Source: Paramecium tetraurelia (taxonomy: Eukaryota). From it: DNA of 64,000 nt. Below the pieces are notes generated by a model. That model saw only the letters and a list, made by a program, of their open reading frames with translations, was not told the DNA's origin and did not search any database. Shown one piece after another: positions 54,440-57,868 of this stretch (position 1 is the stretch's first letter; each line of letters starts with the position of its first letter). Both the position numbers and the translations under genes were made by a program. The stretch covers positions 62,001 through 126,000 of the forward strand of contig CT867991.1 in the NCBI GenBank assembly GCA_000165425.1, given 5' to 3'.

Positions 54440-54457
54440 AAATTTATTTAAAATTTA

Positions 54458-55105
54458 ATGTTCGAAAAAGAAATCGTAATCGATGGCAAAGGACACTTGC
54501 TCGGTCGTTTAGCCTCATACATCGCCAAAGAGTTGTAAAGAGGTTAAAGAATCGTCGTCGTCAGAACTGAGTTGATTTAGCAATCTGGTATCACGCTCAC
54601 AATATTCTAGGTTCTCTCTTCAGAAACAGAGTCATCTTCGAAGAATACCTCAATAAGAGAATGGCATTCAATCCAAGAAGAGGATACAAACATTACAGAA
54701 CACCTTCCAGATGTTTTTGGAAAGTTGTCAGAGGCATGCTTCAATACAAATCCAAAAGAGGAGCAGCTGCTTTGGAAAGATTGAAGATCTTTGAAGGAGT
54801 CCCACCTCCCTATGATACCAGAAAGAGACAAGTCATTCCAGATGCCATCAAATTGATCAGACTCAAGAATCACAGACCTTTTTGCACTTTGGGTGACTTA
54901 TGCGCATCAGTTGGATGGAATTCATAATCTGTTGTTAACAGACTTGAAGAGAAAAGAAAGCAAAGGTATCGTGCATTTTAACACTTCCATTAGAGGTGCT
55001 GCCTACTATAAGAGAAAGGTTGCCAGAGAAAATCTCAGAAGAAAAGCCATCGGAGCTAAGGAACTTACTTCAATCAATTAGGAATTGGAGAAATTGGGCT
55101 ATTGA
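54458..55105 (+). CDS. RPL13A: 60S ribosomal protein L13a (uL13)
   Basis: [55 protein letters not shown]. Two introns. Confidence 0.97.
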
Positions 55106-55556: not shown

Positions 55557-56208
55557 ATGAATTAACTCTTTTTATTCATAACCATTCTTGGAATCGTAAC
55601 AGCCATTCCTAAGAAATTTATGAAGATCGAGGAATCAAACTCAAATGAAAACTAAATTGAAGTTAAAGATTCTATAGATAAGTAGAACAAAATTACATAG
55701 AAATAGAATGATATTATATTAATCGATCAGATCACGGATTGGGAACTGGCAAAGAAAGCCTTTGTTAACCAACTTCAGGACATTTATGATTATTGTTAAG
55801 TTATCCTACTTAATCAAGAATTGGTTGGATTCATTTTAGTTTTAATTATTAGCTACTCGTTTTATTTGATGATTAAATAAGAAGACATTAAATTAAAGCA
55901 AAAGAGCAAGAATTCACAACAACAGCAACAAAGAAAACTCAATAGCAATCCATAAACTATTTAAATTCTTTCGGATTCCCTTGAACAGAAGAATTAAGCA
56001 TTACCACAAATGTCAACTATACATGGCTCAATTTGTTATGCTGAAAGAGTGTTTATATTTTTACAATATTGTTTTTAGAAATAAAACCATCGATGACTTG
56101 ATTGTTAATGAAAAAGGAATCCTCCAAAGGTCCAGCTCCCATCCACTTTTGAATAAGCAGGATCAATCAGTCGAAGAACTTAATTGCCTATTGAGAGATA
56201 TAAACTGA
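55557..56208 (+). CDS. Type I membrane hypothetical protein
   Basis: Signal peptide MNQLFLFITILGIVTA, TM LVGFILVLIISYSFYLMI, one intron at ~56051-56078. Confidence 0.7.
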
Positions 56209-56221
56209 AAGAAAACAAAAT

Positions 56222-56817
56222 TCAATTATAATACATTTCCAAGCACATTTCATGCTTTATTTCATAATCCTCTATAGTGATATGATCCTTAAACACCATA
56301 TGTTATTTCTATAGTCTGATCTTCTCAGGTCTAACACCAATCTTGGCAGCAATCAATTTTTTGAGATCTCCAATCTTGTCTTGAGGACAACACTTGATTC
56401 TCTCCTTCTTGCCCAATCTGTCATTGACCAAGATTTCGATCATCCTGGGTGCCTAAGGATTGTTAAGTAAAGAAGGATTGACTGCCTTCACAGGAGCCAC
56501 AATGTTCTTTTTCATAATCTATGATAATCAAATGATTTTCGTACTTCTTCATAAATATTCAAGGGAGTCTTGACTTTTAGTCCAGTGTATCCAACCTTCT
56601 TTTTCCACTGTTCTAATTTTTCTTCATCCTCTTGCCTTTCCTTTTTGATAATTTCCAAAACATCTAATCCTGCTTATACTGACTTTTATCCTATGTCTAC
56701 TTTATCTTTTCTCCAATCCTTAGATTCATTCTCACCATCTTTTGGTTTTTATTTGTCAGATTTATGTTTCTTTTTTTCATGCGATCTTGATCTGCTTCTA
56801 CTTTTGTGTTTGCCCAT
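56222..56817 (-). CDS. UBL5: Hub1/UBL5 ubiquitin-like domain with a 116-aa N-terminal RS/charged extension
   Basis: C-terminal 73 aa [36 protein letters not shown]...[23 protein letters not shown]. The upstream frame is open to [12 protein letters not shown] via intron 56519-56544. Confidence 0.9.
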
Positions 56818-56850
56818 TTGAATAAAATTAATAATTAAAAATACTATATG

Positions 56851-57627
56851 TCATTCTAGATTCAATGCTATTCTCTTCTATATTATCAATTCCGATTGCT
56901 CCTTTTCAAATTCTTCCATCCTTTTGAGTTTATTTTACCCCTCAATCAGCCGTTCATGCATCGCTTAAATCTTTTAGTTCTCCTTCTACAATTTCATTCT
57001 AATTTATGACTTTAATGAGATGATCTCCTCCAAGGCCAATTACAATTGATTTATGTCTATTTTTTATCTAAAAATTTCCCGAATGATTTTTAGTTCTCTG
57101 CAATTATGAACCTAACAAAACCCTTATGTGTTTTTATCCGAATGTTCAATAATTTCATGAATTGTCTCTGAATTACTACTCGTTAAAGAGGCGAATGAAA
57201 TATCCGAGAAGTCGTCCTCCTTCAATAAATATATTTATTAAGGATTTTAGTCTGGTTGGAATTTAGCCTTAGTTTAAATACTGCATTCGTTTTCACTCGA
57301 CTGCTTGCTTAATTTCCTAATTGTATTTTTTGATCTTGATTAATCACTTATCTTTGATAGCGAATTTTTATGCATCCCTGTCAATTACTGCAATCGCTCC
57401 TTGTATAGAGCATAGTCCCGCTGAGAATATCCCTTTCTCCAAAGTTCAACGACTTCCTGCGAAAATTCTATTAATCTCCTATTCAATTAATTAAAATCTA
57501 CTTTCAAGTCAGCCAACTAAATAGTTCTTGACATTACACATACCTTTTCAGCCTCCATTTAGGCATTATGAAGTTAATCTATAACCTTATTGATCAGAGA
57601 CATTCTTAAATTGCTGTCATAAAGCAT
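56851..57627 (-). CDS. Coiled-coil hypothetical protein
   Basis: MLYDSNLRMSLINKVIDQLHNAQMEAEK| intron.., TGA 56851-56853. Confidence 0.7.
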
Positions 57628-57868
57628 CTTTGTATGAATATTAAATTTATTTCAAAAATAATATAAGCACATCTTCAATGCGTATAAACTAATATTTTAA
57701 TATAAATATTATATTAATATTATAATTTTTATAAAATAAACTTTTTGTTTACATTAAGATATAAATAAATAATGCGAATTTAAATGCAATTTTTCTATTA
57801 GACTTTGATTCAAATGGGATAACAAATTAAAATAATCTTAATAAATTAAATATTTTTTATTAAAACTC

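What the first reader, a model, noticed from the sequence alone, without database searches (positions are those of the whole stretch)
56222..56817. Hub1/UBL5 fused behind an RS-rich, charged 116-aa N-terminal extension
Seen: a full 73-aa Hub1 domain (YY-x end, Asp22 kept, His63 changed to Lys) is preceded in frame by [22 protein letters not shown]...[19 protein letters not shown]. The extension has its own 26-nt intron, and no AT-rich promoter-like gap precedes the internal Met. Known: Hub1 is usually a free ~73-aa protein that binds the Snu66/SART1 HIND element via Asp22 and Prp5 via His63 to promote use of non-canonical splice sites. Inference: a lineage-specific SR-like Hub1 fusion, possibly tethered to the spliceosome and adapted to ~25-nt introns, or a precursor that is cleaved. 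This is my best candidate for an undescribed system in the window.
Basis: partly seen in the sequence, partly recalled or inferred. Interest (0 to 1): 0.72.

Follow-up and report, generated by a model that had tools for sequence, protein, structure and literature searches.

The report
Ciliate Hub1 with long charged tail
In Paramecium the small splicing helper Hub1 is made with an extra 116-residue charged tail, other ciliates have similar tails, and its usual docking site on the partner protein Snu66 is missing, so the tail may be how it reaches the splicing machinery instead.

Summary
The gene (P. tetraurelia GSPATT00028334001, 189 aa) is the only intact Hub1/UBL5 found in this genome. RNA-seq covers extension and domain as one stranded block, and a few reads span the 26-nt intron. 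Residues 44-116 are as conserved among P. aurelia species (92-96%) as the Hub1 domain, and P. bursaria keeps them. Tetrahymena, Ichthyophthirius, Pseudocohnilembus, Pseudomicrothorax and Streblomastix also have charged, RS-bearing extensions. So it is not a response to 25-nt introns, and His63Lys is common in ordinary Hub1.

New here: Paramecium Snu66 begins at about human residue 250 and lacks the RS domain and HIND. Five ciliate-like metagenomic Snu66 genes begin at the same point. No HIND was found in Prp38 or elsewhere in the genome. The MFAP1 residues that dock Hub1 in human B complexes are kept, which explains the retained Asp22. Separately, 26 marine Prp38-Hub1 fusion sequences all lack Asp22.

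Best reading (0.5): an uncleaved Hub1 whose tail takes over targeting or tethering from the lost Snu66 N-terminus. This compensation is inferred, not shown; no binding partner was tested. I found no description in the searchable literature. New variant of a known kind.

The parts
56818..56850 (-). 33-nt AT-rich gap (9% GC) between the upstream gene's stop and the Hub1 ATG; likely transcript start region
   Evidence: composition; RNA depth falls to 0.6-2.5 in 56811-56850
56545..56817 (-). Exon 1, residues 1-91 of the extension
   Evidence: RNA depth 9-51
56758..56817 (-). Basic N-terminus with a short RS run and Lys/His cluster (residues 1-20); candidate nuclear-import/speckle signal (inferred)
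   Evidence: sequence; residues 1-13 are 92-100% identical in aurelia orthologs; similar start in Tetrahymena P0217/P0322
56593..56715 (-). Predicted long charged helix, residues 35-75; candidate binding element
   Evidence: AlphaFold2 helix 35-75, block pLDDT about 56-83; helix 63-94 in the Tetrahymena model; weak similarity between the two, p=0.007 before correction for 21 comparisons
56444..56688 (-). Conserved core of the extension, residues 44-116 (spans the intron), ending in a Pro two residues before the Hub1 Met
   Evidence: 92-96% identical among six aurelia orthologs; kept in P. bursaria P0055 and unnamed P0137, P0279, p=0.001 each; no Pfam, PDB or Atlas family
56519..56544 (-). 26-nt GT-AG intron inside the extension
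   Evidence: depth dip and 3 junction-spanning loose ends
56222..56518 (-). Exon 2: residues 92-116, the Hub1 domain and the TGA stop
56225..56443 (-). Hub1/UBL5 ubiquitin-fold domain (73 aa): N7, R9, K13, K17, D22 kept; D21Q, W47Q, Y48H, H63K; YYN end without GG
   Evidence: Foldseek top hit human Hub1 4PYU, target TM 0.96, rmsd 0.7; phmmer to Hub1/UBL5 E 2.6e-23 to 6.4e-22; residues

Best explanation
This is the ordinary, single Hub1/UBL5 of Paramecium, made as one uncleaved 189-aa chain. SHOWN: gene structure, transcription through the extension, purifying selection on residues 44-116, no second intact Hub1, a Snu66 that starts at the Prp8-binding segment and lacks RS domain and HIND, no detectable HIND in Prp38, and an MFAP1 with the Hub1-contact residues. 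INFERRED from human structures: the ubiquitin-fold domain docks in the B complex between MFAP1, Prp38 and Prp8, holds the end of the 5' exon through N7/R9/K13, and uses its Asp21/Asp22 face for MFAP1 Arg358, which is why Asp22 survives without a HIND. INFERRED, untested: the tail does what the lost Snu66 N-terminus does elsewhere. Its basic RS start brings the protein to the nucleus and splicing-factor pools, and its conserved helix and linker bind a tri-snRNP or B-complex protein, so Hub1 is recruited without a HIND.
For: One intact copy; the ohnolog on G000:C38 is decayed and also began with the extension. RNA. Conservation. Extended Hub1 in every named ciliate hit seen: five P. aurelia species, P. 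bursaria, two Tetrahymena species, Ichthyophthirius, Pseudocohnilembus, Pseudomicrothorax. Paramecium Snu66 (469-475 aa, four species) matches PF03343 only from position 86 and human SART1 from residue 264 at query 13; Plasmodium Snu66 gives HIND at E 1e-9 and 1e-8 in the same scan. Five distinct ciliate-like metagenomic genes start 6-12 aa before the same motif, at profile position 81-84; 0 of 58 upstream ORFs hit HIND or SART-1. No HIND in own genome: PF19252 0 matches at E<=1, patterns at chance level (7 vs 5 control; 29 vs 32), none in Prp38A or the Prp38B C-terminal frames. Human Snu66 has an RS domain (41-108) just before the HIND (PMC4141198 section 5), and 248-358 binds Prp8 (PMC11143319 passages). 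MFAP1 Y335, K340, R358 are kept; R358 contacts UBL5 D22 (PMC10943123 section 12) or D21. In yeast, hub1(D22A) works again when fused behind Snu66, Prp38, Prp8, Prp3, Prp6 or Prp31 (PMC12830679 passages), so an N-terminal tether is tolerated and sufficient. Natural Prp38-Hub1 fusions lack Asp22, Lys17 and Met1 in 26 of 26 sequences.
Against: No partner of the tail was identified. Both traits are seen in the same organism only in P. aurelia species; Snu66 of Tetrahymena, Ichthyophthirius and Pseudocohnilembus was not retrieved, and the metagenomic Snu66 loci are not linked to any Hub1. Human D22A Hub1 still reaches speckles and partly rescues viability and splicing (PMC4141198 passages), so HIND loss may need no compensation. 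The tails of different ciliate-like groups share no detectable homology (hhalign probability under 3%), and Ichthyophthirius has only 46 aa as annotated, which fits a generic charged tail as well as a specific tether. The model shows no confident packing of tail on domain (pTM 0.40). HIND searches in the genome score only a few first-look candidates and could miss a divergent or intron-split motif. In X21, 5 molecules end at 56445, two bases before the internal ATG (1 of 3 RNA runs).
Confidence: 0.5

Rival explanations
1. The tail is only a generic localisation or solubility module (nuclear import, speckle-type partitioning). HIND loss is independent, and Hub1 is recruited by MFAP1 and Prp8 alone.
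For: Tails of different groups are not detectably homologous and vary from about 46 to 170 aa. Human Hub1 D22A localises and partly works without HIND binding. MFAP1 contacts are intact.
Against: Residues 44-116 are as conserved as the Hub1 domain (92-96% vs 96-99%), while residues 14-43 are 70-83%; the core survives in P. bursaria and two more distant sequences. That is more constraint than a plain charged tail needs.
Confidence: 0.25
2. A divergent HIND still exists in an unrecognised Paramecium protein (for example a split-off Snu66 N-terminal gene), so recruitment is canonical and the tail has another role.
For: All HIND-contact residues of Hub1 listed for human (M1, V16, K17, C18, D22, K29, L30, A33) are kept or conservatively changed, except N19C. 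Plants moved the HIND to Prp38 (PMC7615767 passage), so it can move. Genome searches score few candidates.
Against: PF19252 search, two DNA patterns and a Plasmodium Snu66 query found no N-terminal piece. The same Hub1 surface is needed for MFAP1, which explains its conservation.
Confidence: 0.12
3. The chain is a precursor that is cut before MIEIL, or translation starts at the internal Met, giving a standard 73-aa Hub1.
For: Met1 is kept in 33 of 33 charged, Pro(-2) extended forms. Pro at -2 recurs (34 of 50 charged tails vs 17 of 125 low-charge ones, redundant sets) and could be a protease or structural signal. Five fragment ends at 56445 in one run.
Against: No GG motif; the residue before Met varies (R, V, F in named ciliates). 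Met1 is part of the binding surface. Related forms have Leu or Val in place of Met1 (P0279, P0222, P0248). RNA depth does not rise below the internal ATG. A second in-frame Met (93) lies upstream.
Confidence: 0.08
4. The extension is an adaptation to splicing ~25-nt introns.
For: Paramecium has tiny introns (26 nt here); its Hub1 has lost W47, which contacts Prp8 in human, so its spliceosome core is altered.
Against: Tetrahymena and Ichthyophthirius have extended Hub1 with mean introns of about 160 and 150 nt; Streblomastix, not a ciliate, has one too.
Confidence: 0.05

Closest known systems
Hub1/UBL5 (yeast Hub1, human UBL5; PDB 3PLU, 4PYU)
   Same: Ubiquitin fold, YY-x end without GG, N7/R9/K13 exon-contact residues, Asp22 face.
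   Different: 116-aa conserved N-terminal extension; D21Q, W47Q, H63K; no HIND partner detectable in the genome.
Engineered splicing factor-hub1(D22A) fusions in S. cerevisiae (PMC12830679, citing Mishra 2011)
   Same: Hub1 sits at the C-terminus of a longer chain and can work without HIND binding.
   Different: Here the N-terminal part is not a recognisable splicing factor and Asp22 is kept. The natural Prp38-Hub1 fusions found here (P0014-P0018, P0020) match the engineered design more closely.
Snu66/SART1 N-terminus (RS domain 41-108, HIND, Prp6-bound helix 200-219)
   Same: RS/basic stretch followed by helices; it is the part that ciliate Snu66 lacks.
   Different: No detectable homology with the Hub1 tail.
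Plant and Plasmodium Prp38-HIND
   Same: A lineage-specific change in how Hub1 is recruited.
   Different: There the HIND moves or is doubled; here no HIND is found and Hub1 itself is longer.
SR proteins and Sde2 (definitions recalled, not from a call)
   Same: RS dipeptides (SR proteins); a ubiquitin fold inside a longer splicing-factor chain (Sde2).
   Different: No RRM and only a short RS run; the ubiquitin fold is C-terminal and has no GG cleavage site.

Membership tests
Hub1/UBL5 | Ubiquitin (beta-grasp) fold closest to Hub1 | tested here: met
   Foldseek ranks 1-6 are Hub1 structures, 52-59% identity, against about 29% for ubiquitin
Hub1/UBL5 | C-terminal YY-x, no di-glycine | tested here: met
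   ends YYN
Hub1/UBL5 | Asp22 and the HIND/MFAP1-binding surface | tested here: met
   M1, K17, C18, D22, K29, L30, A33 kept; V16I, N19C, D21Q
Hub1/UBL5 | 5' exon contacts N7, R9, K13 | tested here: met
Hub1/UBL5 | His63 (Prp5 surface in yeast) | tested here: not met
   Lys63; not universal in the family: Lys in 59 of 182 other domains
Hub1/UBL5 | Free ~73-aa protein | tested here: not met
   At the gene and RNA level it is a 189-aa ORF; protein processing not testable. Typical of the family rather than defining.
Hub1/UBL5 | Binds a HIND in Snu66 or Prp38 | tested here: inconclusive
   No HIND detected in either protein or in the genome; binding itself not testable
Hub1/UBL5 | Needed for splicing of particular 5' splice sites | not testable with these tools
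   needs silencing plus RNA-seq
SR proteins (definition recalled) | One or two N-terminal RRMs | tested here: not met
   Pfam scan at E<=1 shows no RRM
SR proteins (definition recalled) | Long RS domain (about 50 aa, over 40% RS) | tested here: not met
   6 overlapping RS/SR dipeptides in 116 aa
Sde2-type cleaved ubiquitin-fold precursor (definition recalled) | N-terminal ubiquitin fold followed by a GG cleavage site | tested here: not met
   fold is C-terminal; junction has no GG
Snu66/SART1 N-terminal fragment | Match to PF19252 or PF03343 positions 1-85, or to Snu66 N-termini | tested here: not met
   Pfam; hhalign probability under 1% and shuffles p>0.35 against four Plasmodium N-termini only, so a shallow test

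The most novel reading that the evidence does not exclude
Ciliates rewired the pre-catalytic spliceosome: Snu66 dropped its first ~250 residues (RS domain, HIND, Prp6-bound helix), and Hub1 took that module's job onto its own N-terminus, possibly by capturing that piece of the gene, becoming a self-recruiting Hub1. A marine lineage solved the same problem by fusing Hub1 to Prp38 and discarding Asp22. HIND would then be a replaceable delivery tag, and Hub1's conserved work would be at the MFAP1/Prp8 5'-exon channel.
Probability: 0.35. Interest if true: 0.78.

Novelty: new variant of a known kind. Interest (0 to 1): 0.62.

Why it matters
Hub1 is described as a small free protein whose contact with a HIND in Snu66 or Prp38 is conserved across eukaryotes. 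A lineage with no detectable HIND, a Snu66 cut at the start of its Prp8-binding segment and a Hub1 with its own conserved tail would be a natural experiment on an open point: whether HIND binding or MFAP1/Prp8 docking is what Hub1 needs to steer 5' splice-site choice. Paramecium and Tetrahymena allow silencing and complementation, so tail deletion, D22A and tail swaps are direct tests. The Prp38-Hub1 fusions are natural copies of a yeast engineering experiment and have lost exactly the residue that experiment made dispensable.

Tried and rejected
Short Hub1 paralog: own-genome searches with the domain and with a 73-aa Hub1 gave only this locus plus weak 32-37% ubiquitin-like hits; the DNA search found a decayed ohnolog. 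HIND in own genome: family search 0 matches; pattern hits at control level; 32 of the 36 pattern hits came back as loci and were read in context, the two best being a 37-aa open frame at a contig end and a 58-aa one, both 7 bits on a four-sequence Plasmodium profile; rejected as chance. Tail as an intramolecular HIND mimic or a Snu66 piece: no support. Atlas searches of two tail types gave no usable hit; PDB sequence search of residues 92-116 gave none. A 127-row tree of the 73-aa domain did not finish its careful search and is mostly unresolved (68 of 124 inner branches open), so the number of origins is open; Streblomastix grouped away from the named Oligohymenophorea. Many N-terminal extensions are low-charge and unrelated to each other; I judged them mispredicted starts and did not count them. 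Complex prediction (extended Hub1 with Snu66 1-200 of P. octaurelia) was not available; nothing was folded. Metagenome records could not be searched whole for HIND. No indexed run was on record as RNA; the three laid RNA runs were raw-read additions. Mishra et al. 2011 is not held; its alignments and supplement may bear on ciliates and were not seen. Supplements: Stentor paper, 1 file, no hits; P. bursaria spatial proteomics files unreadable; bioRxiv supplements closed. PMC11354881 lookup timed out, not read. Earlier scan findings: none.

Full report
OBSERVATION. The window is G000:C8:62001-126000 of a 72.1-Mb genome read with NCBI code 6. On the minus strand an ORF runs from ATG 56817 through a 26-nt GTA...TAG intron (56544-56519) to a TGA at 56224-56222. 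It gives 189 aa: 116 aa of extension and a 73-aa Hub1 domain from 56443, with Asp22, Lys63 and a YYN end. Both exons are identical to P. tetraurelia GSPATT00028334001 (P0023), annotated only as 'unnamed' or 'ubiquitin-like domain-containing'. The domain folds as Hub1: the AlphaFold2 model has pLDDT above 90 there, and Foldseek ranks 1-6 are Hub1 structures.

EXPRESSION. Three oligo-dT RNA runs and one contig set were laid on 56051-57250. Depth on one strand is 9-51 over the extension, 13-31 over the Hub1 domain, dips across the intron bins and falls to 0.6-2.5 at 56811-56850; the upstream gene reaches at most 8. Three reads leave exon 1 at 56545 with 11 letters equal to the exon-2 edge. No plain skip joint was listed, so read support for the junction is thin; the frame and the orthologs carry most of the weight. 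Against a single start: five fragment ends at 56445 in one of three runs. These are fragmented libraries, so such ends are not start sites, and depth does not step up there.

COPY NUMBER AND CONSERVATION. The domain, the extension and a 73-aa Hub1 each found only this locus as a real match in the genome. A DNA search found the syntenic ohnolog on C38; it keeps the ATG and the start of the extension, then has a stop and deletions, and only a C-terminal Hub1 remnant. Six orthologs from four other P. aurelia species are all 189 aa. Identity by segment is 92-100% for 1-13, 70-83% for 14-43, 92-96% for 44-116 and 96-99% for the domain. P. bursaria (P0055) and two unnamed sequences keep the 44-116 core (p=0.001 each against window shuffles). 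The model predicts a long helix at 35-75 and a short one at 88-95, with no confident packing on the domain (pTM 0.40).

DISTRIBUTION. Every named ciliate Hub1 that the searches returned is extended: Tetrahymena malaccensis and utriculariae (118-aa tail with an RS start, His63 kept), Ichthyophthirius (46), Pseudocohnilembus (159; its first part may be a merged gene model), Pseudomicrothorax (112-113, transcriptome). Streblomastix, an oxymonad, has a 173-aa RS-rich tail. Unnamed sequences form at least four more tail families. These families are not detectably homologous (hhalign under 3%); only the Paramecium and Tetrahymena helices align weakly (p=0.007, one of 21 comparisons). Most share a Pro two residues before the Hub1 Met (34 of 50 charged tails, 17 of 125 low-charge ones; sets are redundant). 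I did not see the Hub1 length of Stentor or of spirotrichs by name. Mean introns are 153 nt in Ichthyophthirius and 163 nt in T. thermophila (PMC3341644, passage), so the tail does not track tiny introns. Lys63 occurs in 59 of 182 other domains.

THE PARTNER IS CHANGED. Paramecium Snu66 (two ohnologs here; 469-475 aa in four species) matches PF03343 only from position 86 and aligns to human SART1 from residue 264 at its own residue 13. It has no HIND, while two Plasmodium Snu66 in the same scan do. The upstream neighbour is a DUF1765 gene. A metagenome scan returned 9 Snu66 loci. I examined 6 for the start motif; two of them share the same upstream DNA, leaving five distinct genes. The other three were dropped: two begin inside the gene and one looks non-ciliate. 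All five start 6-12 residues before the same motif, at profile position 81-84; four read through only with code 6. None of 58 upstream ORFs from these loci and the two Paramecium loci hit HIND or SART-1 (58 of the 80 listed, the nearer ones). Calling them ciliates is inference from code and similarity. In human, Snu66 41-108 is an RS domain directly before the HIND (PMC4141198, section 5), helix 200-219 sits on Prp6 (PMC10943123, passages) and 248-358 binds Prp8 (PMC11143319, passages). So these genes keep the Prp8-binding part and lack everything before it. Prp38A and the C-terminal frames of both Prp38B copies have no HIND. Genome-wide HIND searches were empty or at control level, with the caveat that they score few candidates. 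A Stentor survey also lists Snu66 as not found (PMC9505925, table passage).

WHY ASP22 STAYS. In human B complexes UBL5 docks on the MFAP1 C-terminal region through the HIND surface (PMC8431670, passages). MFAP1 Arg358 contacts Asp22 (PMC10943123, section 12) or Asp21 (PMC11143319); the two papers differ. Paramecium MFAP1 keeps Y335, K340 and R358. The Hub1 domain keeps N7, R9, K13 and D22 but has D21Q and W47Q; W47 touches Prp8 in human, and is Trp in only 7 of 33 charged, Pro(-2) tails against 148 of 182 others.

A SECOND SOLUTION. Six clusters of marine proteins are Prp38 fused to Hub1. All 26 distinct full sequences lack Asp22, Lys17 and Met1 but keep N7, R9, K13, W47 and H63; they are closely related, so this may be one event. 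In yeast, hub1(D22A) is inactive when free and active when fused behind Snu66, Prp38, Prp8, Prp3, Prp6 or Prp31 (PMC12830679, passages). The fusions show that covalent tethering replaces HIND binding in nature.

MECHANISM. Best reading (0.5): an uncleaved Hub1 that docks on MFAP1 and Prp8 as usual, with the tail supplying the targeting or tethering lost with the Snu66 N-terminus. Gene structure, expression, conservation and the truncated Snu66 are shown; docking is inferred from human structures; the tail's role is inferred from co-occurrence and from the yeast fusions. Against it: no tail partner is known; both traits are seen together only in P. aurelia species; human D22A Hub1 still localises and partly rescues (PMC4141198, passages); the tails differ between groups. 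Rivals: a generic localisation tail (0.25), a hidden HIND (0.12), cleavage or internal start (0.08), tiny-intron adaptation (0.05). Origin of the tail from Snu66 itself is not detectable, but was tested only against four Plasmodium N-termini and Pfam.

NOVELTY. Nine full-text searches were run. One search (Hub1, N-terminal extension, splicing, Snu66) returned 0 papers; in the others I read listings, and passages of the papers cited above, of PMC7615767, PMC10158995 and PMC3424538. None described an extended Hub1, a HIND-less ciliate Snu66 or a natural Prp38-Hub1 fusion; they place the HIND in Snu66, Prp38 or both. Mishra et al. 2011 could not be read, subscription journals are not searched, and unseen supplements could contain such a remark. 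The SR-protein and Sde2 definitions are recalled. Verdict: a member of the Hub1/UBL5 family in a new architecture; new variant of a known kind; interest 0.62.

Noticed in passing
P0014-P0018, P0020 and cluster members: Natural Prp38-Hub1 fusion proteins of about 305 aa from unnamed marine eukaryotes; all 26 full sequences lack Asp22, Lys17 and Met1. Host lineage and whether it has a free Hub1 or a HIND are unknown. Worth a finding of its own.
   Followed up: partly
G000:C447 and C313 (L010, L011); L022, L024/L025, L027, L028, L029: Snu66/SART1 truncated at the start of the Prp8-binding segment in Paramecium and five ciliate-like metagenomic genes (379-475 aa where the frame is whole).
   Followed up: yes
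G000:C38, L057 about 1400-1750: Decayed ohnolog of this Hub1 gene next to an intact-looking ohnolog of the upstream gene (77% nucleotide identity).
   Followed up: yes
window 56545-56627: RNA reads that carry the exon 1 end and jump back within exon 1 at 8-9-nt microhomologies (joint 56605 to 56545 in 5 reads; loose ends at 56627 in 9 reads). Probably template switching in library preparation; small circles not excluded.
   Followed up: partly
P0137: A 9-residue insertion at the position of the Paramecium intron; may be an unspliced 27-nt intron at a conserved site in a distant relative.
   Followed up: no
P0011 (Streblomastix strix), P0003, P0004, P0009, P0113: RS-rich extended Hub1 grouping apart from the named Oligohymenophorea in a poorly resolved tree; possibly an independent origin.
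   Followed up: partly
L004 1456-2223; L005, L006: Paramecium Prp38A ends in an RS/His-Lys run much like the start of the Hub1 tail; Prp38B has a long Ser/Lys-rich C-terminal part and a weak Tudor-like stretch. Low complexity, no homology claimed.
   Followed up: no
window 56851-57651 (-): Upstream gene, about 256 aa, coiled-coil-like, no Pfam family over cut-off, low expression; two A>G differences in RNA reads at 56988 and 57020 (likely alleles).
   Followed up: no
window 54440-55105 (+): Intron-containing, GC-richer gene that reads like ribosomal protein L13a/uL13 (label recalled, not tested).
   Followed up: no
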